64,000 bases of DNA, from positions 334,862,001 through 334,926,000 of the forward strand of contig OZ024742.1 of the NCBI GenBank assembly GCA_964016885.1. The letters run 5' to 3'. Below are positions 3,967 to 59,965 of the stretch, piece after piece. The stretch is from Eledone cirrhosa (lineage: Eukaryota). The stretch's first letter is position 1; every line of letters begins with the position of its first letter. The position numbers and the translations under genes were made by a program. The notes beneath the pieces are model-generated. The model saw only the letters and a program-made list of their open reading frames with translations, was not told where the DNA came from and did not search any database.

Positions 3967-3998
3967 ACCTGAAGAAGGGCTTATGCCCGAAACGTCGT
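3967..3998 (+). ncRNA. Minimal type I hammerhead ribozyme motif (Penelope pLTR-like)
   Basis: ac-CTGAAGA-a-gggc(ttat)gccc-GAAAC-GTC-gt; AATAAA about 37 nt downstream, then (TA)n; stem I only 2 bp. Confidence 0.65.
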
Positions 3999-4179: not shown

Positions 4180-4312
4180 AAAGTGTGGTAAGAAACCAGG
4201 TGGGCCATAACGCACCAGAGTACTCGATACTTAGGATAGTAGAATGAGTGATAGGATCTAGCTGTCGAAACGACCGGAGCTCAGCCGTCGAGGACCGGAC
4301 TCTTTTCCTATA
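4180..4312. mobile_element. Dispersed repeat of the GAAAC-hairpin-GTC family; inverted partner at 4820-4880
   Basis: ggatctagctgtcgaaacgaccggagctcagccgtc also occurs at 28600-28815 and 48400-48592; the other half matches 46300-46400. Confidence 0.7.
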
Positions 4313-4324
4313 TATATATATAAA

Positions 4325-4795: not shown

Positions 4796-4984
4796 TCTTT
4801 ATATATATATATATGTTTATATATAGGAAAAGAGTCAGGGCCCCGACGGCTGAGCTCCGGTCGTTTCGACAGCTAGATACTCTATATAAAGGATCGATCG
4901 ACTTTCGTCAAATCGGACCGAGGAAACAATGTTTTCGTCGGTCTTTCCAGTTGCTAATACTATCTATCGGTCGCAACTCCAGGC

Positions 4985-24032: not shown

Positions 24033-24323
24033 TCATTCTTTCTTTCTTTCTTTCTCTTTTTTTCTCTCTATTATTTTCTTTTTTCTTCTTTTTCTTTTTC
24101 CTTTATTAATGATGTCGTAATTTGAATTTGTAAACGTTGTGTATAATTTTATTTTTTCAGTTTTTCTGATGATTTGGTTAAGCATACATTGTATTTAAAA
24201 TTGAGTGACACAACTTCAAGTGATTAGCAATTTTAAGACAACTTAACCAATGAAACAATTGTTAATACTGTAAATAAAACCCTTTTTGTACTGTTGACCA
24301 TGTTATTCTCCACTCTTTCACTA
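23522..24323 (-). mobile_element. Hammerhead-bearing element with inverted arm (23686-23905 vs 24100-24323)
   Basis: Inverted repeat of about 220 bp around a (CTTT)n spacer; diverged homolog at 47724-48020. Confidence 0.75.
24158..24270 (+). ncRNA. Type I hammerhead ribozyme motif
   Basis: CTGATGA-t-ttggttaag...cttaaccaa-t-GAAAC-aatt-GTT; 9-bp stem II, palindromic stem III ACAATTGT, weak stem I. Confidence 0.65.
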
Positions 24324-24331
24324 TATATATA

Positions 24332-25475
<1,144 letters not shown>

Positions 25476-25489
25476 ATATATATATATAT

Positions 25490-26482
25490 ATAAACAAGGT
25501 TTAGTAAATAATGAAAAAGTTTCAAAATAAATTTTAAAAAATTGACTTTACCTACTATAGTTACCTTTACCGATCGGTTTCGAATCCCAAAAATAAAACG
25601 TAGGCCATACGGCCTTCGTTGCAAAGAGAGATTCTCGTCAGAAGGTTCTTTTCATTCAAAGAATATAAAATTCCTGAATTTAAATCACAAACTAGCGCTA
25701 TCAAAGACTGTTCCTGGGATGAGAGTGGATGATGTAGAACAGGTTTATCAAGGGCCGTAGTAAAGATAGAGGCAAAAGGAGGTAGGTCGAACTAGCCACC
25801 GCGATTCGAAACCGATCGGTAAAGGTAACTATAGTAGGTAAAGTCAATTTTTTAAAATTTATTTTGAAACTTTTTCATTATTTACTAAACCTTGTTTATA
25901 TTTGTTCTGGCTCGTTAATTTATTAACCCGCCATTGAACCACACTGGCACTTGGTTGGACAATACATGCGTACCTTGGCGCCTTGTGCGTGAAAGGACGT
26001 ATTTCATATTACTACTACCTCCACATACGTTGAGAACAAACCGGGTCATTCCGACTGCTGCTGATAACAGCGGTGGCTAGTTCGACCTACCTCCTTTTGC
26101 CTCTATCTTTACTACGGCCCTTGATAAACCTGTTCTACATCATCCACTCTCATCCCAGGAACAGTCTTTGATAGCGCTAGTTTGTGATTTAAATTCAGGA
26201 ATTTTATATTCTTTGAATGAAAAGAACCTTCTGACGAGAATCTCTCTTTGCAACGAAGGCCGTATGGCCTACGTTTTATTTTTGGGATTCGAAACCGATC
26301 GGTAAAGGTAACTATAGTAGGTAAAGTCAATTTTTTAAAATTTATTTTGAAACTTTTTCATTATTTACTAAACCTTGTTTATATTTGTTCTGGCTCGTTA
26401 ATTTATTAACCCGCCATTGAACCACACTGGCACTTGGTTGGACAATACATGCGTACCTTGGCGCCTTGTGCGTGAAAGGACG

Positions 26483-26490
<8 letters not shown>
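25490..26490 (+). mobile_element. Retrozyme-like element: 1.4 tandem copies of a 483-bp unit (25803-26490) preceded by an inverted segment (25490-25802)
   Basis: gattcgaaaccgatcggt at 25803 and 26286; identical 72-aa ORFs on opposite strands; (TA)n on both sides. Confidence 0.88.
26226..26309 (+). ncRNA. Type I hammerhead ribozyme, canonical core (mirror copy on minus strand at 25563-25646)
   Basis: acctt-CTGACGA-gaatc...gattc-GAAAC-cgatcg-GTA-aaggt; all three stems pair. Confidence 0.92.
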
Positions 26491-26554
<64 letters not shown>

Positions 26555-26559
<5 letters not shown>

Positions 26560-26609
26560 AGTATGTATGTATACGTACATACATATATGTATACAGACGT
26601 ACAGTAGCA

Positions 26610-26645
<36 letters not shown>

Positions 26646-27130
26646 CAGGTACACATACATATATGTACGTATCAGTTTAGCGGACGCTTATTATAGCGCC
26701 CGCTTTGTTCGTTTGTAAACAAACTGAACAGCCTGAATTTATGCCGTACGGTGTTAAGGCAACCACGTCACCTTTTTGTTCAACACTGACACAGGAACGA
26801 TGTACTAGTTTCAAACTTGTTAGCTATCATCAGCACCGTATACCCTTCTGCCAGATGGTTGAACGTTCGAAAGTATATACTTTCCTTATGAAAATTAACG
26901 GCTGAGCAGCCTAATTTGCATATCGAGTGAGTTCGGCCAGGCGTACCGAGAACGACAAGTTGTAATAAAATGAAAACGAAATTTCATTTCTCACTCTTAG
27001 TACGGCACTTACTTAAATGTAAGTATGTATGTATACGTACATACATATATGTAAGTGCCGTACATACATATAAGTAAGTGCCGTACTAAGAGTGAGAAAT
27101 GAAATTTCGTTTTCATTTTATTACAACTTA
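26555..27130 (-). mobile_element. Retrozyme-like element: about 462-bp unit with terminal redundancy and inverted end (26958-27015 vs 27071-27129)
   Basis: atgtaagtatgtatgtatacgtacatacatatatgta at 26555 and 27017; inverted arm visible. Confidence 0.7.
26797..26839 (-). ncRNA. Compact type I hammerhead ribozyme
   Basis: Minus strand acggtg-CTGATGA-tagct(aaca)agttt-GAAAC-ta-GTA-catcgt; 6-bp stem I, palindromic ACTAGT stem III, weak stem II. Confidence 0.8.
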
Positions 27131-27141
27131 TATATATATAT

Positions 27142-28551
27142 TTGAATCATAGACAACCTATGTATTTCTGGGGGTACCTAGTATCCCTGGACATATTAAC
27201 TTCAATCTCTTTCTCCGTCCGTTGAGAACAATTCTGTTGCTCTATTTAGCTGCTATTTTTTTAGTAGTAATTGTAGACAGCAAGTCTTTGATTTTCCCGC
27301 TTTTACTTCGGTCCAGTTTACATACGGGTCACTTTTACGACCTTTCAGACCTTTATTTGCTGGCAGGAGGTTATATATTTTGTCGTTCCTGGGACGTTTA
27401 GCCCTAGGAAGAGAAAATGCTTCCTGATGAGCTTTGGTTTTCCATCATAAATCCATCGGATTTATGAGGTTTTACAAAGCGAAACTGATCAGTAAGGGCC
27501 ACTAGGAGAGGTAAATATTTATATTATATTTTTTAATGTATTTTTAGAAAATTGATTGAATTTTACTTGTTCTGCTTATCTTAATATTAAAGTTCTGGTG
27601 TATCAAATTAATACCATTGAACAACCTTGAATCATAGACAACCTATGTATTTCTGGGGGTACCTAGTATCCCTGGACATATTAACTTCAATCTCTTTCTC
27701 CGTCCGTTGAGAACAATTCTGTTGCTCTATTTAGCTGCTATTTTTTTAGTAGTAATTGTAGACAGCAAGTCTTTGATTTTCCCGCTTTTACTTCGGTCCA
27801 GTTTACATACGGGTCACTTTTACGACCTTTCAGACCTTTATTTGCTGGCAGGAGGTTATATATTTTGTCGTTCCTGGGACGTTTAGCCCTAGGAAGAGAA
27901 AATGCTTCCTGATGAGCTTTGGTTTTCCATCATAAATCCATCGGATTTATGAGGTTTTACAAAGCGAAACTGATCAGTAAGGGCCACTAGGAGAGGTAAA
28001 TATTTATATTATATTTTTTAATGTATTTTTAGAAAATTGATTGAATTTTACTTGTTCTGCTTATCTTAATATTAAAGTTCTGGTGTATCAAATTAATACC
28101 ATTGAACAACCTTGAATCATAGACAACCTATGTATTTCTGGGGGTACCTAGTATCCCTGGACATATTAACTTCAATCTCTTTCTCCGTCCGTTGAGAACA
28201 ATTCTGTTGCTCTATTTAGCTGCTATTTTTTTAGTAGTAATTGTAGACAGCAAGTCTTTGATTTTCCCGCTTTTACTTCGGTCCAGTTTACATACGGGTC
28301 ACTTTTACGACCTTTCAGACCTTTATTTGCTGGCAGGAGGTTATATATTTTGTCGTTCCTGGGACGTTTAGCCCTAGGAAGAGAAAATGCTTCTCTGATG
28401 AGCTTTGGTTTTCCATCATAAATCCATCGGATTTATGAGGTTTTACAAAGCGAAACTGATCAGTAAGGGCCACTAGGAGAGGTAAATATTTATATTATAT
28501 TTTTTAATGTATTTTTAGAAAATTGATTGAATTTTACTTGTTCTGCTTATC

Positions 28552-28558
<7 letters not shown>
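27142..28558 (+). mobile_element. Retrozyme-like tandem array: about 2.9 near-identical copies of a 485-bp unit
   Basis: ttgaatcatagacaacc at 27142, 27627 and 28112; TA tracts at both ends. Confidence 0.92.
27419..27499 (+). ncRNA. Type I hammerhead ribozyme (repeated at 27904-27984 and 28389-28470)
   Basis: CTGATGA-gctttg...caaagc-GAAAC-tgatca-GTA-agggc; internal 10-bp hairpin tcataaatcc/ggatttatga in loop II. Confidence 0.88.
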
Positions 28559-28599
<41 letters not shown>

Positions 28600-28604
<5 letters not shown>

Positions 28605-28815
28605 TATGGTGTGATAAAACCCAGCTAGACCATAACCCACCAGAGTCCTCGATTATTGGGGTAGTAGGGTCAGTAATATGAAAAAATTCAGCACCCCGAC
28701 GGCTGAGCCCCAGCCGTTTCGAAAGCTAGATCCGAACTCATTTACATGCTCACCAGTTCGGATCTAGCTGTCGAAACGGCTGGGGCTCACCCGTCATAGT
28801 CCTGGATCTTTTCAT
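28600..28815. mobile_element. GAAAC-hairpin-GTC family repeat with fold-back end
   Basis: gacggctgagccccagccgtttcgaaagctagatccgaact ... agttcggatctagctgtcgaaacggctggggctcacccgtc. Confidence 0.75.
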
Positions 28816-29332
28816 AAATATATATATTTGATTTCGATCCACTGAATAGGGTGACGTCACAAAACCCTGCAACTCAATGGCAGCCATTGATGTTGACCTG
28901 TCCTTCTTTTTGCATATGTGTTGCTCTTGTTCAGAAAGTTTCCAGTGCAAGGTCTTTTACGCATAAAAGCGTTATATGCACTGGCGTCATATGATTTAAA
29001 CATGTTTTACGTGTGTTGCTGAAATGGATGGTCGTATCCGAAAAAAGTTTTTTCTTTCGATGCTAAAAAATCGCGTTCGTACCACTATGTGTGAGAAAAG
29101 ACTTGAAAACCGAGTAAAATACATATATTTGTTATATTTACATGGCTATATATTTAAAAACTCTAAATGTATATACATTTATAGACACATGTATGCAGCC
29201 ATAGCTATTTCTTTTTCTTTACTGTATATACGGATTTAACTTTGCCAAATAATATATATATATATATATGCCTACATACTTACATACATACACACACACA
29301 CACAAACACACAAACAGACACACACACACACC

Positions 29333-30487: not shown

Positions 30488-33400
30488 CTACAGGCTTATA
30501 AACAGAGAAGGCCCAATCACTCGGGCCATTTTCGCTTCATTCACCCACCTTTCAGTAAATTTACTGGGGTGCAGTGCCTCTCTCTCCACCCTGATTCTCC
30601 TTCTAAAGTGATACTTAAAGAAGGGAATCAATTGTTGTCCGGAGAGAAAGGCATCTGTCCTCAGTCCTCTCAACCTCGTCCACCATATAACTTCTTTCAC
30701 CATAGCCACCGTACAGAGGAAAACCGCCTCTCTTTCGTTTTTGAAAGAGTCTGGCGGTTTGATCCTTACTATGAACTCGGCAGTCAACTGTATTTGTCCC
30801 ATACGCGACAGCAGTTGTTCTGCATAGTTCCACAGGTCGCTTACGCCCGGGCAGTGTACAATTGCGTGCAGAACTGTTTTAATGTCCTGCGCACATCTTG
30901 GACACGTCCTCTTGGAAGGATCCCTGCCAGGGCGTCCGTGCCTGTAGATCTTGTCACGAACCGGTAGAGCTCCTCAGTAGCACTGCCAGGCAAGGGACCT
31001 CTGGAAGTTGTCCATAGGTCCCGGGCGGAAAGTCCTACCAAACATACTGGTGAGCTCATCGTCTTCGACGCCCAGAGTCTCTCCGAGCACGTCGTCGCCC
31101 TTGTAACGTACAATCCCTCTATAGAATGTCGAAGTGGAGTCTCCACTGATTGCTGCGCCCGCTTGCCAGAGGACTGTGAGCGCCTGAGCGCATTCAATGT
31201 GCCAGGCGCCCATCGTTTTCGGTCTTTTCTTCACCCAGGACTGCAGCTCCGTTAGCGAGACGAGCTGTGGGAAAGCCTGTCTCACAAACGGTGCACACAC
31301 CGGTTGGGGGTCGGTGACGAATACCTGGAGATGCCGCAGCCTCAGCGCATGTTTGCGCATCATCAGCCACGGCATTCCCAGCCCTCCGTTGGAAGGGTGC
31401 TGACAGCAGACGGATCTCCTCACCAGCGGAGCCTGCTTCTTCCACAGAAACTGGAAGAGCATGCGTTCCATCTTGGCGAGGTGTTCACGGGGACAAGGCA
31501 CGACAGTCAAGCGGTAGTAGATGACGGACGCTATGAAAGTGTTCGCCACCTCCGCTCGACCTTTCAAGGACAGTTTGCACTCTGCCCATTTCTGAGTGAG
31601 TGCAAACACCTTGGCCGTGACCTCGTTCCAGTTTTTCTCCACCTGGAGGTCTGGACCGAACCAGACCCCGAGCAATTTCACCGGTCCGGCCGTCCAGCGT
31701 CCAACGACGCTGTCGGATGTCATCGGTTTGCCTCTCCACGTACCGAGTTGCAAACCGACAGACTTGTCTGGGTTTAGTTTTGCTCCCGTCAGCGTTTCGT
31801 ATTCTTTCAGTATGTTGCCGATCACCCCGATTTCCGAGGTGCTCGACACCATTACTGTCACGTCGTCGGCATAAGCCGACGCCGCTTTGCGCAGTCCCGG
31901 TTCTAGGGGGATGCCCTTCAACAGCTCCAATTTCCGCAGTAGTGGCTCTAGAGTCAATACATACAGAATGGAGGAGAGAGGGCATCTCTGTCGAATGGAA
32001 CGCGTGATTGCGAACGGCTCCGATAGGTAGCCGTTCACCTTGACCCTCGAGCAGATGCTGGTGTGCATCGCCTCGATCCATCCTCTGAACACGGGACCGA
32101 AACCGGCCGCCTTGAGAACCGCTTCCAAGTATCGATGGTCGACCCTATCGAATGCCTTAGACTGATCCAAGTTGATCAGAGCCCCACCGAAGCCGGGTTT
32201 ACTACCCACCCTCTCTATGATGTATCGCATGAGGTAGAGGTTGTCGTGTATGGACCGGGTCGGGATTGCACACGTTTGCGCTTTCCCTACCAGGTTCTCG
32301 ACGACAAGCGCCAACCTCGTCGCTAGCACCTTGGCCAAAATCTTTAACTCTGTGTTGAGCAGAGTTATGGGCCTGAAGTTGTTAATTTCGTCCCCCTTGT
32401 TCTCGTCTTTCCTGATCAGCGTTACTACGCCCTTGCCTGCAGAACTGGGAATTCTCCCGTTCTGCTGCCAATTGCAGTAGACGGCTTCGAGGACGCCAGA
32501 GAACAAGTCCGGCATGCCTATGTAAAATTCGTAGGGTAGACCATCTAGACCGGGTGACTTGCGTTTCCCGCAGCGGCCCAGAGCGTCCCGTATCTCAGTG
32601 TCCGTGATCGGTCTTTCGCAGAACTCGGCGTCCGTGTTCGAGAGACGCGGCAGGCCGTCGAGGTATGAACTAAAGTCCATTGCCCCGTTCGGCTCACCGT
32701 CGTTCTGCTCAAACAGTCGCGCAAAGTGCCGCTGAAAGGCCGCGCACATTTGCTTGGGGTCAAGTAGCACGCGTCCGTTTTGGTCTTTCAAAGACCGAAT
32801 CGTGGACTTGTTGCCACTTTTTGCCTCCGCCACTCGGGCCCAGCTGACAGCTTTCGCTCCTTCGTTTCCTAGAGCACGTGTTTTGCTTCTGACCACGCAG
32901 CCTTCGTGTTTCGCATCGAAGAACTGGTCCAGTGCCGTTCTCGACGCTAACACTCTAGCCGCGTTGCCACTTCTAAGTGCCTCCTCTACCTTGGCTACTA
33001 GTTCTCTTTCTATTCTGTTTTTCTCTAAGGCTAACTCTCTGCTATACCCTATCGATTCTATTCTAATTGCTTTCTTGAGAGAGTACCACCATCTATTGTT
33101 GACGATGGCTTCCGTTAACTGTTGCTTGACTAGTTTACTTATCCGTTCACTGTAAGCTTTACGTGCCGGCAACGACACGTTCAGCTTCCAGTATCCGGGA
33201 CCCTGTCTATGTATTCTATCACGGTTGACTAAGCAGACGACTAACTTGTGATCTGAATAGGCAACCATGTGCATTCGTGGACAGCTTAACATATCCTTGT
33301 CCCTTTCTCTAATGAAGAACCTATCTAAATACGATCTAGATGTCCCACTGCGGTTTACCCACGTCCACTGTGGTGCAGTCGGGAAATCCAGTCGATACCT

Positions 33401-33934
33401 ATCGGCCAGTTGGAATTGGCCGATTAAAGTTTTGAGGCTGTTGCACCCCGCTCTACTGGGACATGCTCCCACATAGTCCCATCGTGCATCTAGGATACCA
33501 TTCCAGTCCCCCACTAAAAGTAAGGAGCGAGACGTTCCCAGAAAAGACTCTAGATGCTTAAAGAAGTCTGGCCGTGATTGCGATTGCCCGGTCGGGGCAT
33601 AAACGGCCACCAGTCTGAAGGCTCCACCTCCGATACTGTTCACGTCTAGGACTACCAGTCTACCCTCCGGGTCCAAGTGTACTTGCTGTACTCCGACGTC
33701 CAGGTTCTTCCGAAACATAACAGCCACTCCACCTCCACCTCCTGGCTGACAGAGAGATGCGTAGATCTCAAAGTCGTCGAAGATGGGGGTTAGTTGCTGC
33801 CTGTTGTGGATTCTGGACTCGGTGATGGCTATCACATCCATACTGTGTGACCTAAGGTCGTTTAAAAGTTGGCCCTGTTTCCAGGGCATCCCTAGGCCAC
33901 GCACATTCACGGTTCCAACTCGTAAACCAGCCAT
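30488..33934 (-). pseudogene. Tx1 ORF2 (AP endonuclease, reverse transcriptase, C-terminal zinc finger); open for 986 aa (33934-30974), then a nonsense codon and frameshift
   Basis: NVRGL, GDWN, YLDRF, SDHK, GYWKLN, KSPGLDGLP, FRPITLLN, DQSKAFDRV, RQRCPLS, YADD; TGA where copy 2 has an Arg codon. Confidence 0.93.
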
Positions 33935-33975
33935 GTTGGTGAAGAAAAGTTGGAGAAAAAGGACGAAAGGTGCAC

Positions 33976-35851
33976 TTACCTTTTCGTTTGCTGGAGATCG
34001 GGTTGTTCAATCTCCATTTGGGTGCTGGATGGGGTGTTGGGTGGGGCGGGGAAACCTTTCAACAGGACGCGGTTGATGGGTTTGTGGCAGGGGTTGCCCA
34101 CGTCCTGTGAAAATTTAATTTTCAGGTCTTTATAGGTTTCCATAGAAACCCTTATAAGTTTAAGGTGTGGAGACGATTCTGCCTTGACGAAAGTTTTGCC
34201 CTCCGTCTCCACCTTGGGGTTTGGGGAGATGACCTCCATCAAACTCTTGTTGTTTGTGTTGATGTATGCGTATTGTTGTTTGTGTTTTTGTTGTATTGTT
34301 TTAGTTTGTTGTTCATCCGGGAGTTTTCTTTTTATGGTGGGTGCTTGTGTTTGGGGTGGTGTTGGTGCTGGTTTTGCTGATAGGGGATGTTTGACTGTGG
34401 TGTTGTTTGTGTTGTTGTTTGTGTGTGTGGTTGTGTGTTGGTGTTGGTGATTGGAGTTTTGGGGGTTTTGTGGTGTCTCTTTTTTTGTTTTTTGGATTTC
34501 CGCGGTTCTCCCTCTTCTTCACTTAAAGAAGGAGAAGCAGCTTCATCCGTCGATGAATAATCATCGTCAGGTGTGTGGGGTAAGGGTATGTTGTGTGGTG
34601 GTGGTGGTGTTTCGGTATGTGTGTTTGTGGTAGTGTTTGATGGAGTGGGATGGAGTGGGGATGCGTTCTTCAGGGGTGTTGTCTCTGTTTTTTCTGTTGT
34701 TGTTGGTTGAGTGTCTGTTTGTTTTGGTGTGGTTGCTCGTTTCGTCTGTCGTTGTACTTGTGGTGGTGGTGGTGGTTGTTTTGGTGTTGGTGTTGGTAAT
34801 AGCGTTTTTTTATGATGTTGCTGTTGTGTGTTTGTGGACAAGAGGCTTTTAGGTGAGATGTGCTACCACAGCGAAAGCAGTGAAATTTTCTTCCTTCTAC
34901 CGAAATGTTTATTTTGTTTTTATTATCAATAACGACTCTTTCGGGTATTTTGGAGATTCTCTCCGGTTTCATTTGCAACAGAATCTCCAAATCGGTGCCC
35001 GCCCACCTTTGTCGAATGGATTTTCGTATCGAAAGTATTATGTCTGTTTCTGGCTCTACGAAGCCAGCCAAGATCCACCAGATGTTAATGCTTGGAGGTA
35101 TGTTTTTTATTTTTATTTTTTGTGTCCTTTTCCCCATGTATGTAGGGAAAAAGGTGTATGCTTTTGACACTATTGGTGTCACAGAGTTTTTTTGGGCCAG
35201 TGCCTCGCTTTTAAACAGTACGGAAACACTTCTGTACTGTTTTCCTCGCTGGAGAAAATCGACATTTCCTAGAATCTCCTTGAAAGAATCTTCTATATCT
35301 GACTGATTAACAAATGTCGGTTTTCTTGACGAATTTGACACAGTCCTAAAAGTGACTGATCGGCGGTTTGTGTCTTCCTTTATTTCAAGGGGTGAGTTAA
35401 TTCTAAACCCACCTCTTTCTTCGAAAGTTACAAATTTTCTCCCTTGCTGGAGCATATCTCTTGCGTTGGAGATATCAAGATTTATAAAATCTTGTTTCTT
35501 GTTGACTGTGTCAGCGAAAGACATTTTCTTTTTTTGTGTGATGTTGTTGTTAATAATGATGTTATCGTTGTTGGAAATTTTATGTGTAGATGTATCTGTA
35601 GAGTTGTTGATGTCTTTTTCATGTGTATGTATATCAATGGGTTTTTTTGCCGTGTTTTCCCGTGTGTTATTGTCATTTTTCTCCGCTTCGGCGGTAGAAA
35701 TTGTAACATTTTCAAATGTTGATATATTTTTTTCTTTTGTGACAGTATCTATGGCAACGTCCATAGCAGCAGAAGCAGATATAACGTTAATATCTGCCTC
35801 TTTCTCTCTCTTTTCTCTATTAACGTTCTCCAGCGTTCTAGTGTTGCTCAA
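33976..35851 (-). pseudogene. Tx1 ORF1 (nucleic-acid-binding protein with CCHC knuckle), frameshifted
   Basis: CFRCGSTSHLKASC in ORF 35851-34670; continues in 34841-34332 and 34242-33976, the latter homologous to copy 2 ORF 40044-39499. Confidence 0.85.
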
Positions 35852-36067
35852 GTTTTTTTACTTTGTAAAATTTGATATTTTAAAACAAACTTTTAAATAA
35901 AATTTTCGCCCCTACAGGGGCGAAAAATGGGATTACCACCCAGCTGACAATTCAGCTTGGGGGTTAATCTACAAAGTGTTGTATTTTTTTCAAACAATTA
36001 GATCGGTTTTTTGCATAGAAATTAACAAAAAACTTACCGGCGATATTCCACACGTTAGACAGAAAGA

Positions 36068-36155: not shown

Positions 36156-39100
36156 TTTCTTTATTAGCCACAGGGGCACAAAAGAAGGGGACAAATACAA
36201 AAGGGGAAGTTTACATACAATAAAAACGTGTAAAATATTATCACAAATACAATTTAAAAATTAGTCGATTTTCCCCAATAAGGGGAGACATTACATATGG
36301 GTAACACATACCCCCGAAAAAAATGTGCAACCCTCATCTCCAGGAGTACAAAGAGTTTGTACTCCTTTCCTCTCCTCCTCTTTTTCCTCAACCTACAGGC
36401 TGATATAGAGAAAAGGCCCATTCACTCGGGCCATTCTCGCCACTTTCACCCACCTTTCATAAAACTTGATGGGGTACAGCACCTCTCTCTCCATCCTGAT
36501 TCTTCTTCCAATGTGGTATTTGAAAAAAAGAATCAGTTGTTGGCCGGAGAGAAAGGTGTCTGATCTCAGCCCTTTCAACCTTGTCCACCATACAACCTCT
36601 TTCGCCATAACTATTACACAAAGGAAAACCGCCTCTCCTTCGTTTTTGAAGAAGGGTGGCGGTTTGATCATGACAATGGACTCGGTGGTCAACCGGATTG
36701 GTCCAACCCGCGACAATAGTCGTTCTACATAGCCCCACAGGTCGGCGACGCCCGGGCAGTGTATGAATGCGTGCGCGACGGTTTCTTCGTCTTGCATACA
36801 CCTCGGACAGATCTTTTTTGCAGGGTCCCTGCCCGGGCGCCCATGTCTGTAGAGCTTGTCTCGAACTGGTGGACCTCCTCGGTGGCACTGCCAGGCCAGA
36901 GACTTTTGGAAGTTGTCCACCGGTCCCGGGCGGAAGGTCCTACCGAACAGACTGGCCAGTTCGCCTTCCTCTACGCCTAGAGTTTCACCGAGCGTGTCGT
37001 TGCACTTGCTGCGGACCAACCCTCTATAGAATGTCGAAGTGGAGTCTCCACTGATCGCCGGTCCGTTTGCCAGAGGACTGTGATCGCCTGAGCACATTCA
37101 ATGTGCCAGTCACCCATTTTCCTCGGTCTTTGCTTGACCCAGGACTGCAGCTCGGTCAGTGACACGAGTCGTGGGAAGGTTCGCCTCACGAACGGGGCCC
37201 ACACCGGTTGTCCGGTGAGGAATACGTAGAGATGCCGCAGCCTGAGCGCGTGTTTGCGCATCGTCAGCCACGGCAACCCCAGCCCTCCGTTGGAAGGGTG
37301 TTGGCAGCAGATGGATCTTCTCACCAAAGGAGCCCGCCTCTTCCAAAGGAATTGGAAGAGCACGCGCCCCATTTTGCCGAGCGTTTTGGCTGGACAAGGC
37401 ACTACGGTCAAACGGTAGTAGATGGCGGACGCTATAAAAGTGTTCTCCACATCCGCTCGACCTTTCAAGGATAGTTTGCACTCGGCCCACTTCTGGGTGA
37501 GTGCAAACACCTTGGCCGACACCTCGTTCCAGTTTTTCTCCACCTGGAGGTCCGGACTAAACCAGACCCCAAGTAGCTTTACCGGTCCTTTCGTCCAGCG
37601 TCCGACGACGCCATCGAAAGGCATCGGTCTGCCTCTCCACGATTGCAAACTGATGGACTTGTCCCGGTTCAGCTTCGGCCCTGTGAACCTTTCGTATTCC
37701 TTCAGTAAGGTGCTGACTTACGCGATTTGCGAGGCGCTCGACACCATTACTGTCACGTCGTCGGCGTAGGCCAACGCCGCTTTCCGCAATGCCGGTTCCA
37801 GAGGGATGCCCTGCAATAGCTCCAACTTCCGCAGTAGTGGCTCGAGAGTCAGTACGTACAGAAGGGAGGAGAGAGGGCATCCCTGTGGATCGCGTGATAT
37901 GGAACGGCTCCGCGAGGTTGCCGTTCACCTTGACCCTTGAGCAGATGTTGCTGTTGTGCATGCAGCAATCCAGCCCCTGAACACGGGTCCGAAGCCTGCC
38001 GCCTCGAGCACCGCATCCAGGTAACGATGGTCAACCCTAGCGAAAGCCTTAGACTGATCCAAGTTGATCAGTGCCCCACCGAAGCCGGATTTACACCCTA
38101 TCCTCTCTATGATGATATCACATGAGGCGGAGGTTGTCGTGTATGGACCTGGTCGGGATTGCGCATGTCTGCGCTTCTCCCACCAGGTTCTCGACGACAA
38201 GCGCCAGCCTCTTTGCCAACACCTTGGCCAAAATCTGTAACTCTGTGTTTAGCAGAGTTATGGGCCGGAAGTTTCCTATGTCATCGCCCTTGATCTCGTC
38301 CTTCCTGATTACGCCCTTGGTCACAGAACTGGGAATTCTTCCATTCTGCTCTCAGTTGCAGTAGACCGCCTCCAGGAGACCGGAGAATAAGTCCGGCATT
38401 GCTACGTAAAATTCGTAGGGTAGACCGTCGAGACCTGGAGATTTGCGTTTGCCGCATTGGCCCAACGCGTCCCCTATCTCAGCGGCTGTGATCGGCGTTT
38501 CACAGAACTTTGCCTCGCCGTCCGAGAGTCGCGGTAGGCCGTCGAGGTATGAACCGAAATCCATAGCCCCTCCCGGCGCGCCGCCCTGCGCGAACAGTTG
38601 AGCAATGTGCCGCTGAAAGGCCGCACACATCTGCTTCGGCTCACGTATCACGCGTCCGTTTTGATCCATCAAAGACCGAATCGTGGACTTGTTGCCACTT
38701 CTTGCCTCCATCACTCGGGCCCAGCAAACAGCTTTGGTTCCCTCGTTTCCCAGAGCCCGTATTTTGCTTCTGACAACGCAACCTTCATGCTTTGCGTCGA
38801 AGAACTGGTCCAAGGCCGTTCTCGTTGCTAGCACGCTGGCTACGTTGCCACTTCTAATTGCATCTTCTACTTTATCTACCAGTTCCTTCTCGGTTCTATT
38901 TCTATCTAATGCTAATTCTTTACTAAAAACTAACGAGTCTAATCTAACTGCCCTCTTGAGAGAGTACCACCATCTGTCATTGACAATGGCCCCTGTGAAG
39001 TACCGTTTAACTAAAGTGCTAATCCGTCTACTGTAGGCTTTGCATGTCGGTAACGACAAATTCAGCTTCCTGTAGCCGTGTCCTTCTCTATGGGTTCTAT

Positions 39101-40243
39101 CCAGGTTGACCATGCAGGTCACTAGTTTGTGATCTGAATAGGCAACCATGAACATTTGTGGACAGCTTAACATGTCCCTATCCTTATTTCTAACTAGAAC
39201 CCTATCAGCAAAACGGCAACCTCGCCCCCACCCCCCGGCCGACAGAGAGATGCGTAGATCTCAAAGTCATCAAAGATGGGGGCAGCTGTCGCTCGCTGTC
39301 GATCCTGGACTCGCAAATGGCTACTACATCCATACTGTGCAACCTGAGGTCGTTTAAGAGTTTGCCCTGTTTCCAGGGCATCCCCAGGCCGCGAACATTC
39401 ACACATCCAACTCTTATATTTGCCACGTTGGTTCTGAAAAGTTAAAAGAGAAGAAAACACTCACCTCTTCGTCTCCCGGGGATCAGGCCGCGCGGTTTTC
39501 AAGGGGGTGTTAGAGGGGCTGTCTGGGTGGGAGGTGGTTTCCGGCGAGGTCGGAACGGAGATGTTTGGTGGGGTGGGGGTGTCTGGGGTGGGGGTGTCTG
39601 GGGTGAGGGTGGAGAAACATTTAAAAGGGCGCGGTTAATGGGTTTAACACAATGATTACCCACGTCCTTAGGAAAGTTTTCCTTTAAAGACTTATAGGTG
39701 TCCGTAGGGACCCTAATCATCTTTAAATTAGGTTTGTCTACACAGTTCGAAAAGGTTTTCCCTTCGGTTTTCACCGAAGGGTCGTTGGAGATGACCTCCA
39801 TTAAAGTTTTGTTTTTACTGTTTATGTATGTGTAATGTTCTTGTGTTGCGGTGGTTTTTGTCTGTTCTTGTGGGAGCTTTCGTTTTGTTGTAGGTGTTTG
39901 TGTTTGGAGTGATGTCGTGGTTTTGTTTTCGGGACGGGGGGTTTTTGTTTGTAATGTTTGTGTTGTTTGTGTTGGTGGTTGTATGTTTGTAGTGATGTTT
40001 GTTGTTTTTTTGTTCTTGTAGTGTCTTTTCTTCTTTCTTTTCAAACGGAGAGGCTCTCCCTCATCGTCACTTGGTGATGATGTGGGGGCCTCGTCCGTTG
40101 TGGCGTCTGTGTTATTTGGAAGGGGTATGTTTTGGGGAGCTGTTGTGTTTGTGGGTGTTTTTGCAGTGGTTTTAGGTGGAGTGGGACTGGGTGGGACTGT
40201 GCTTGCAGGTTGGTTTGTTGTTCTTATTTTGGTTGTGTTTGCG

Positions 40244-40291
<48 letters not shown>

Positions 40292-40390
40292 GGTGGTGGT
40301 GGTGGTGGTGGTGGTGGTGGTGGTGGTGGTGTTGGTTGTGTTGTTGTTTTGGGTGTTGGCAGTAGTGCCTCTTTTTTTTTTTAATACGTG
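36156..40390 (-). mobile_element. Tx1-type retrotransposon copy 2, different subfamily, 5'-truncated in ORF1, degenerate ORF2
   Basis: ORF2 fragments 39426-36393 homologous to copy 1, deletion in the APE domain, several frameshifts, intact CPRC...H...C zinc finger. Confidence 0.93.
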
Positions 40391-46137: not shown

Positions 46138-46419
46138 TATTAAAATAACAGATTAAAGTTTAAGCAAAGAAAAGCTGCTTTCACTCTTAACAGGATCTTC
46201 TGAAACTTATATATTTGATATATATTTATCCTTATCGAGCCCTCTTTGGATTTTAGTCTTCACATTTATTATTATTATTATTACTATATACATATATATA
46301 TCAGAATGGAGGCGGTAAAAACCAGTTAGACCATTACTCACCAGAGTACTCGATACTTGGGGTAGTAGAGTGGTAAATATGAAAAGCTTCAGGAGCCCGC
46401 ATGAATATATATATATGCG

Positions 46420-48342: not shown

Positions 48343-48399
48343 CACATATACATATATACATACATACATATATATATATTTATATATATATATATATTC

Positions 48400-48585
48400 A
48401 ATTCAGGACCCCGATGGGTGAGCTCCGGCTGTTTCAATAGCTAGATCCGAACAGTTAGGATCTAACTGTTGAAACGGCCGGAGCTCAACCGTCAGGTTAC
48501 TGAATTGTTCATATTATCCACTCTACTATCCCAAGCATCGCGTATTCTGGTGAGTAATGGTCTAACTAGTAATCACCGCCTCCAT

Positions 48586-59931: not shown

Positions 59932-59965
59932 CTTCTGAAGAAGGACTAGCGTCCGAAACGTCAAG
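59932..59965 (+). ncRNA. Minimal type I hammerhead ribozyme (Penelope pLTR-like)
   Basis: ctt-CTGAAGA-a-ggac(tagc)gtcc-GAAAC-GTC-aag. Confidence 0.78.

What the first reader, a model, noticed from the sequence alone, without database searches (positions are those of the whole stretch)
27142..28558. Three-copy 485-bp tandem array with one hammerhead per unit
Seen: near-identical units starting about 350 nt upstream of the cleavage site, so the array is permuted relative to a cleaved monomer. Copy 3 has one extra T before CTGATGA, which restores the first stem I pair (T-A rather than C-A). Inference: rolling-circle reverse transcription of a circular RNA; transcription would release exact 485-nt monomers.
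Basis: partly seen in the sequence, partly recalled or inferred. Interest (0 to 1): 0.8.

Follow-up and report, generated by a model that had tools for sequence, protein, structure and literature searches.

The report
Hammerhead retrozyme array in TA microsatellite
This is a real three-copy, non-coding repeat with a hammerhead self-cutting RNA motif in each copy, one of many copies of a family that likely spreads with the enzymes of Penelope-like retrotransposons, a known kind of animal mobile element whose ends are unusually easy to read here.

Summary
In detail: 2.92 units of 485 bp at 27142-28558, identical except one T at 28394, each with a type I hammerhead core, inside a TA microsatellite. 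Public data show a multi-copy family with head-to-tail joints and compensatory ribozyme changes. This is an animal non-LTR retrozyme, a known kind.

The T is the family's normal state, so copies 1-2 lost it, which one pass around one circle does not explain. The 3' end does not look random: another locus ends at the same point before TA repeats. So does one arm of a homologous 483-bp sister element 650 bp upstream, which shows the Penelope inverted-plus-tandem layout. That end lies 80-95 nt past the cut, just 5' of a conserved hairpin, like the internal priming site reported for an anole Penelope-like element. Folding predicts a mostly locked ribozyme, so release of exact monomers is unproven. 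Stem I may use a distant register with an inserted hairpin (about 20%). The scan noted similar TA-targeted tandem repeats, and hairpin-inserted hammerheads, on other DNA.

The parts
27142..28558 (+). Whole array, 2.92 units of 485 bp, non-coding, 35% GC
27142..27626 (+). Unit 1 (lacks the family's T before the core)
27627..28111 (+). Unit 2 (identical to unit 1)
28112..28558 (+). Unit 3, 447 nt, with the T at 28394; stops just before the conserved hairpin
27424..27494 (+). Hammerhead core 1; predicted cut after 27494
27909..27979 (+). Hammerhead core 2: long stem II 27916-27965, palindromic stem III 27969-27978; predicted cut after 27979
28395..28465 (+). Hammerhead core 3; predicted cut after 28465
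27886..27908 (+). Two candidate 5' strands of stem I (copy 2 numbering): distant, 27886-27890, a perfect 5-bp match to 27980-27984; and adjacent, ending at 27908, weak. The letters between can form a hairpin
27849..27895 (+). Upstream helix predicted to occupy the distant stem I strand and to pair with the first core bases (predicted lock)
27989..28058 (+). Long AU-rich hairpin after the cut, also present in the sister family
28059..28076 (+). Single-stranded linker holding the shared 3' end point (28072-28074 in unit 2; 28558 in unit 3); inferred start of reverse transcription
28077..28107 (+). Hairpin conserved in sequence and fold with the sister family (also at 27592-27622); present only between units; inferred protein-binding or priming signal
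27130..27141 (.). (AT)6 left flank, inferred target microsatellite
28555..28600 (.). (AT)23 right flank, overlapping the unit's last four bases
25488..26490 (.). Homologous sister element, period 483: inverted partial copy 25488-25802 (-), partial unit 25803-26009 (+), full unit 26008-26490 (+), own hammerhead, TA repeats on both sides

Best explanation
The array is an insertion of a multi-copy, non-coding, hammerhead-bearing repeat family (an animal non-LTR retrozyme) that was likely copied into a TA microsatellite by the reverse transcriptase-endonuclease of a Penelope-like element. Shown: tandem units, a hammerhead with compensatory variation, other copies, TA flanks, a 3' end shared with another locus and with a sister family, and a conserved hairpin just past that end. 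Inferred: the borrowed protein binds the conserved hairpin on a longer-than-unit RNA, nicks (TA)n DNA and starts cDNA in the unpaired linker just 5' of the hairpin, about 93 nt past the ribozyme cut. It copies more than one unit and stops five bases short of a later copy of the same hairpin. The template was more likely an uncut tandem transcript than a single circle, or one unit was duplicated locally after an insertion of about 1.9 units. The ribozyme would cut weakly, as a dimer or with protein help.
For: Family and tandem state: 352 reads of run X13 and 302 contig records of run X1 lay on the unit at 85-100% identity; 47 + 41 X13 reads and one X1 contig join unit end to unit start. Ribozyme under selection: a double change at 27973/27974 keeps the stem III palindrome (10 of 29 X13 reads, one X1 contig), and the pair 27933-27949 changes from U-A to G-C (X5; 6 of 9 and 5 of 9 X13 reads). 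Ends: 60 X13 reads leave the unit at 28074 into TA then TG repeats, a flank unlike this locus. The sister's inverted arm ends at the homologous point, 80 nt past its cut, in TA repeats. Sister homology: 290 of 526 columns identical, score 55 against -61 +/- 15 in 500 shuffles (maximum -5), with the same hairpin-linker-hairpin fold. The hairpin motif occurs 4 times in the window, all in these two elements, with 0.00 expected. Literature: partial tandems, inverted 5'-truncated copies, a 30-40 bp tail and (TA)n bias are Penelope-like hallmarks, and the Hydra clade has both hammerheads and (TA)n insertion (Craig 2021). The anole element primes internally 111-118 nt into its ORF with the cut at +26, that is 85-92 nt past the cut, on uncut RNA in vitro (PMC11167929).
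Against: No autonomous Penelope-like partner was found: the unit has no other match in the window and no genome is held. The shared-end evidence is three insertions only, and the 60 reads probably come from one locus. The sister's other end lies 106 nt further on (186 nt past its cut), so there is more than one end point. All ends fall on AT-rich microhomology, which could also arise by chance priming. This array has no inverted copy. Some variants break stem II pairs unless unlisted changes compensate (27916, 27935, 27953; 23 rows of the table were not shown). No RNA evidence was obtained. The missing T in copies 1-2 could be an assembly error, which would remove the argument against a single circle.
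Confidence: 0.72

Rival explanations
1. Rolling-circle reverse transcription of one circular 485-nt monomer from an arbitrary start made all three copies in one pass (first reader; model of Cervera and de la Pena).
For: The monomer folds as a stable circle (-137.9 and -134.1 kcal/mol, z -6.5 and -4.5 against 60 shuffles each). The array is non-integer and starts 353 nt before a cut. Retrozyme circles are shown by northern blot in coral, mussel and axolotl (PMC7229834). The sister family has two different 3' ends.
Against: Copies 1-2 share a loss of the family's T while copy 3 keeps it. The same 3' end recurs at another locus and in the sister family. The core's first bases are predicted paired in context: P(unpaired) 0.00-0.01 in copy 2 and 0.04-0.37 in copy 3. 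Eight of nine Xenopus retrozyme dimers did not cut in vitro (Li 2026 preprint).
Confidence: 0.15
2. A short copy inserted once and the array then grew only by local tandem duplication, as ordinary satellite DNA.
For: The copies are identical and share several letters that differ from most organism A copies (for example 27843, 27897, 27991). The shared T loss in copies 1-2 fits one late duplication. Li 2026 proposes local amplification of terminal repeats.
Against: The 38-nt segment with the conserved hairpin exists only between units, so duplicating a 447-nt monomer could not create it; the first insertion had to span about 1.9 units. Head-to-tail joints occur in other members of the family, and the sister element is also a partial tandem.
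Confidence: 0.1
3. The hammerhead is a decayed or chance motif and the repeat moves by some other route.
For: Rfam gives no hammerhead hit on it. The adjacent stem I is weak (-2.9 kcal/mol). Folding predicts an inactive state.
Against: Only 5 of 5000 shuffles hold such a core. Compensatory changes occur in stems II and III. The sister family has the same core with a perfect adjacent 5-bp stem I.
Confidence: 0.03

Closest known systems
Animal non-LTR retrozymes (Cervera and de la Pena 2020, PMC7229834; Li, Clavereau and Pollet 2026, 10.64898/2026.07.22.740005)
   Same: Non-coding, low-GC tandem units with one type I hammerhead each; short palindromic stem III; multi-copy; a self-paired predicted circle; a few units per array.
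   Different: The unit is longer than the 150-450 bp of the 2020 paper, though within the 51-972 bp of the 2026 preprint. Stem II is very long and stem I is ambiguous. The parts of those papers that I read describe neither a shared 3' end at a conserved hairpin nor (TA)n targeting. Expression and circles are untested here.
Terminal repeats (pLTRs) of endonuclease-bearing Penelope-like elements, especially the Hydra and Neptune clades (Craig 2021; Cervera 2014, PMC4209133)
   Same: Hammerhead with a long stem II and palindromic stem III, partial tandems, microsatellite insertion without a readable target duplication, and an inverted partial copy in the sister element.
   Different: No RT/GIY-YIG ORF is attached or was found. 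This array has no inverted copy. The sister's two ends differ by 106 nt, not the 30-40 bp tail.
Poseidon element of Anolis carolinensis, PAc (Frangieh 2024, PMC11167929)
   Same: The element's end lies at an internal RNA site about 85-92 nt past the hammerhead cut, at a stem-loop, with AT-rich targets. Here it is 80-95 nt.
   Different: [quoted passage not shown] Here the end lies in an AU-rich linker just 5' of a hairpin and is inferred from DNA. No sequence comparison with PAc was made.

Membership tests
Animal non-LTR retrozyme | Tandem units of a few hundred bp with a type I hammerhead in every unit | tested here: met
   485-bp period, core in 3 of 3 units
Animal non-LTR retrozyme | Non-coding and GC below 50% | tested here: met
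   35% GC; six frames full of stops; two open stretches scanned, best Pfam E 0.22
Animal non-LTR retrozyme | Dispersed multi-copy family | tested here: met
   352 reads in X13 and 302 contig records in X1 at 85-100% identity; a locus with a different flank
Animal non-LTR retrozyme | Monomer predicted to be highly self-paired | tested here: met
   64% paired, z -6.5 and -4.5
Animal non-LTR retrozyme | Expressed as linear and circular monomer RNA | not testable with these tools
   No run on record as RNA was laid; needs northern blot or RNase R RT-PCR
Non-autonomous Penelope-like element | Partial-tandem arrangement | tested here: met
   2.92 units here; partial plus full unit in the sister
Non-autonomous Penelope-like element | Insertion into (TA)n | tested here: met
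   Both flanks here, both flanks of the sister, one further locus
Non-autonomous Penelope-like element | Inverted 5'-truncated copy at the 5' end (frequent, not obligatory) | tested here: inconclusive
   Absent from this array; present in the homologous sister, 315 nt at 100%
Non-autonomous Penelope-like element | 30-40 bp tail on one end | tested here: inconclusive
   The last unit lacks 38 nt that the inner units have; the sister's two ends differ by 106 nt
Non-autonomous Penelope-like element | Homology to the terminal repeat of an autonomous RT/GIY-YIG element in the host | not testable with these tools
   No genome held; no other match in the window
Type I hammerhead ribozyme | Core boxes, stem II and stem III | tested here: met
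   compensatory changes; 5 of 5000 shuffles
Type I hammerhead ribozyme | Stem I directly adjacent to C3 | tested here: inconclusive
   Adjacent register is weak (2 Watson-Crick + 2 wobble pairs with the T; mismatch at the base without it); a stronger register lies 18-19 nt away
Type I hammerhead ribozyme | Site-specific self-cleavage | not testable with these tools
   Needs an in vitro assay; folding predicts a locked state

The most novel reading that the evidence does not exclude
The ribozyme is a four-way-junction hammerhead: stem I is the distant perfect helix and a 19-nt hairpin sits between it and C3, a place where a 2023 survey said known hammerheads have insertions of no more than 1-2 nt. 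The conserved hairpin downstream is the cis-signal at which a Penelope-like protein starts copying retrozyme RNA, which would give direct anatomy for how animal retrozymes move.
Probability: 0.2. Interest if true: 0.65.

Novelty: new member of a known kind. Interest (0 to 1): 0.38.

Why it matters
Animal retrozymes are known, and their link to Penelope-like elements has been argued from co-occurrence and terminal-repeat homology. How they are copied (circle or uncut multimer, random or fixed priming) is still open. This locus offers two diverged families (55% identical columns) side by side that keep the same fold and end point, plus a one-base mosaic that separates the template models. That makes a short, protein-free substrate for testing Penelope-type internal priming. 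If the distant stem I is real, it would add an animal example of a hammerhead with a hairpin inside the core.

Tried and rejected
No genome is held, so no genome-wide end survey was possible. Rfam: no hammerhead hit on the array; the microRNA hits are hairpins in flanking elements, below their cut-offs. No RNA holder was listed. Exact hammerhead patterns found 0 matches in metagenome and viral contigs. A two-motif pattern gave 9 + 1 loci. All 10 were rejected as chance: 44-59% GC, best blast matches to the two units only 14-25 nt. A 37-nt GT-AG intron after the cut (27996-28032) was considered. It was dropped because the GT lies in a hairpin arm kept in both families, the sister has no AG nearby, and no such joint appeared (none of those runs is on record as RNA). 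A remnant of an endonuclease C-terminus at 28045-28119 was considered from a recalled resemblance. It gave no Pfam hit (weak test at 25 aa), and the stretch is conserved as an RNA hairpin instead. Four of five X13 pile-up ends (27757, 28044, 28091, 28094) have mixed loose letters and lie at or beside AATT, and the fifth (28022) lies in a T/A run; I treated all five as library artefacts. The X5 loose end at 27630 looks like a Hi-C ligation junction (enzyme motifs recalled). The 6 X10 reads and the short X5 matches at 28002-28035 were treated as chance AT-rich matches. RNAalifold on the two families failed through misalignment of two sequences. An X1 depth drop after 27677 matches the sister's second end, but X13 shows no drop there, so I did not count it. 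Literature searches for octopus + hammerhead ribozyme + Penelope, Penelope-like + non-autonomous + TA microsatellite and retrozyme + microsatellite listed no paper on this family; most subscription papers are not searched.

Full report
Observation. Tandem Repeats Finder reports 27142-28558, period 485, 2.9 copies. Units 1 and 2 are identical. Unit 3 has one more T, at 28394, and ends after 447 nt. The array begins directly after (AT)6 and runs into (AT)23, with four bases shared between unit and microsatellite. Each unit has a hammerhead core with a long stem II (27916-27965 in unit 2), a self-complementary 10-nt stem III region and a GUA site. Five of 5000 shuffles of the unit hold a comparable core. 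Rfam does not recognise it. The unit is 35% GC and shows no credible ORF. The window looks like an AT-rich, microsatellite-rich animal genome with LINE fragments; the host was not identified and no genome is held.

A family, not a one-off. The run search listed 15 runs, 9 of them holding part of the unit. I laid 4 of the 15. In organism A, 352 of 12.5 million X13 reads and 302 X1 contig records fit at 85-100% identity. Unit end joins unit start in 47 + 41 X13 reads and one X1 contig. An organism B contig matches 209 nt with 2 differences; the 6 raw reads from B are short AT-rich matches that I discount. A double change at 27973/27974 keeps the stem III palindrome (10 of 29 X13 reads), and the stem II pair 27933-27949 turns from U-A to G-C. 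Against this, changes at 27916, 27935 and 27953 break pairs unless unlisted changes compensate; 23 rows of that table were not shown.

The T. X1 contigs break at this exact point with loose ends that carry the T, the X5 contig has it, and 4 of 5 X13 reads have it. So copy 3 has the family's state and copies 1-2 share a loss. All three copies also share letters that most organism A copies lack (for example 27843, 27897, 27991), so they come from one source. One pass around one circle would read the same template three times and should not give this pattern. A multimeric template from a mixed source array, a late local duplication, or an assembly error would. A pure duplication of a 447-nt monomer is excluded, because the 38-nt segment 28074-28111 exists only between units.

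The ends. Sixty X13 reads leave the unit at 28074 into TA and then TG repeats, a flank unlike this locus; they probably represent one locus. Summed X1 depth falls from 46,596 to 17,558 across the same point, which is weak support because contig depth is uneven. About 650 bp upstream lies a second element with its own hammerhead and a 483-nt period: an inverted 315-nt copy, a 207-nt partial unit and a full unit, between TA runs. Its monomer aligns end to end with this one (290 of 526 columns; z 7.9 against 500 shuffles; a local alignment away from the core scored 44, reached by 0 of 1000 shuffles). Both fold after the cut into a long hairpin, an unpaired linker and a second hairpin with conserved arms. 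The sister's inverted arm ends in the linker, 80 nt past its cut; this array ends in the linker 93 nt past its cut. The array's left end lies five bases beyond the second hairpin. Against a single fixed end, the sister's other end is 186 nt past its cut, and every end falls on AT microhomology.

Mechanism. Craig et al. list partial tandems, adjacent inverted 5'-truncated copies, a 30-40 bp tail and microsatellite bias for Penelope-like elements, and both hammerheads and (TA)n insertion for the Hydra clade (10.1101/2021.04.23.441226; passages and sections 11 and 15). Frangieh et al. show that the anole element primes internally 111-118 nt into its ORF with the ribozyme cut at +26. Uncut RNA was the main substrate in vitro, and the ribozyme cut only with protein present (PMC11167929, parts 1-2 of 4). 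I infer the same here: a Penelope-like protein in trans binds the conserved hairpin, nicks (TA)n, primes in the linker and copies more than one unit. Priming 93 nt past the cut needs an uncut multimer or a circle, since a cut linear monomer would give only 93 nt. The T mosaic tips me towards the multimer or a later duplication. No helper element was identified.

Ribozyme state. The adjacent stem I duplex is -2.9 kcal/mol, against -15.5 for a distant, extended register that starts with a perfect 5-bp helix. Constrained active folds favour the distant register by 4.5-6.5 kcal/mol, with the intervening 18-19 nt as a hairpin. That 5-mer occurs in 74 of 5000 random 30-nt windows of shuffled units, and it matches the sister's adjacent stem I with two compensated pairs. 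Against it: the outer part of the distant helix is broken by the family's common letter at 27991, two variants (27987, 27989) would extend the adjacent register, and the family keeps the T that the adjacent register needs. Eckert et al. state that known hammerheads have no insertion above 1-2 nt there (PMC10085705, part 1 of 8 and passages). Perreault et al. found that a 2-nt insertion there impairs cutting (PMC3088659, passages). In wider context both registers have probability 0.02 or less, because an upstream helix takes the 5' strand and the first core bases. Equilibrium folding ignores dimers, tertiary contacts and co-transcriptional folding. Stem III can self-pair between two copies at -13.6 kcal/mol, as in dimer-type hammerheads (PMC4209133, parts 1-2 of 4; PMC6765202, passages).

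Comparison. It meets the tested features of animal non-LTR retrozymes (PMC7229834, parts 2-4 of 6). Li et al. already argue that these derive from Penelope-like terminal repeats, and found cleavage in 1 of 9 dimers tested (10.64898/2026.07.22.740005, parts 1-3 of 5). It works like a non-autonomous Penelope-like element; strict membership needs the autonomous partner, which I could not look for. Supplements of these papers were not seen. Earlier scan notes hold nothing on this sequence or genome. They report TA-targeted tandem repeats with a tRNA in place of the ribozyme and prokaryotic hammerheads with inserted hairpins; these are unchecked leads, not support.

Verdict. A real, well-formed new member of a known kind, with a mechanism that leans towards fixed internal priming rather than random rolling-circle starts. 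Interest 0.38.

Noticed in passing
window 25488-26490: Sister retrozyme family, 483-nt period, with a canonical adjacent 5-bp stem I and the Penelope-type inverted plus partial-tandem layout between TA runs.
   Followed up: yes
window 24333-24857: Near-perfect palindrome of two 213-nt arms (24432-24644 / 24645-24857), each with a hammerhead-like core (24764+, 24525-), and about 100 nt extra on the left arm only, between TA runs; likely a third Penelope-type family.
   Followed up: partly
window 26672-27129: Minus-strand element with a minimal hammerhead at 26833-26803 (weak Rfam HH9 hit, 15.8 bits, E 2.8) and a 69-nt inverted repeat at 26957-27025 / 27061-27129, directly left of the array.
   Followed up: partly
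window 24300-28830: At least six different elements lie in a row, separated by (TA)n runs: a pile-up of insertions into TA microsatellite.
   Followed up: partly
window 28601-28830: Hairpin-forming repeat with relatives at about 4183-4321, 4818-4878, 46316-46399 and 48384-48567 (70-84% identity).
   Followed up: no
window 25057-25475: Element with 115-nt inverted arms (97%), MITE-like or an inverted retro-insertion.
   Followed up: no
window 3969-3996 and 59935-59962: Minimal hammerhead-like cores on the + strand with short stem II and almost no stem III, as described for Penelope-like terminal repeats.
   Followed up: no
window 30974-35857 (-) and 36393-40380 (-): Two tandem LINE copies: a 1010-aa ORF with Exo_endo_phos and RVT_1 domains, a 395-aa upstream ORF without a Pfam hit, and a second, broken copy.
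   Followed up: partly
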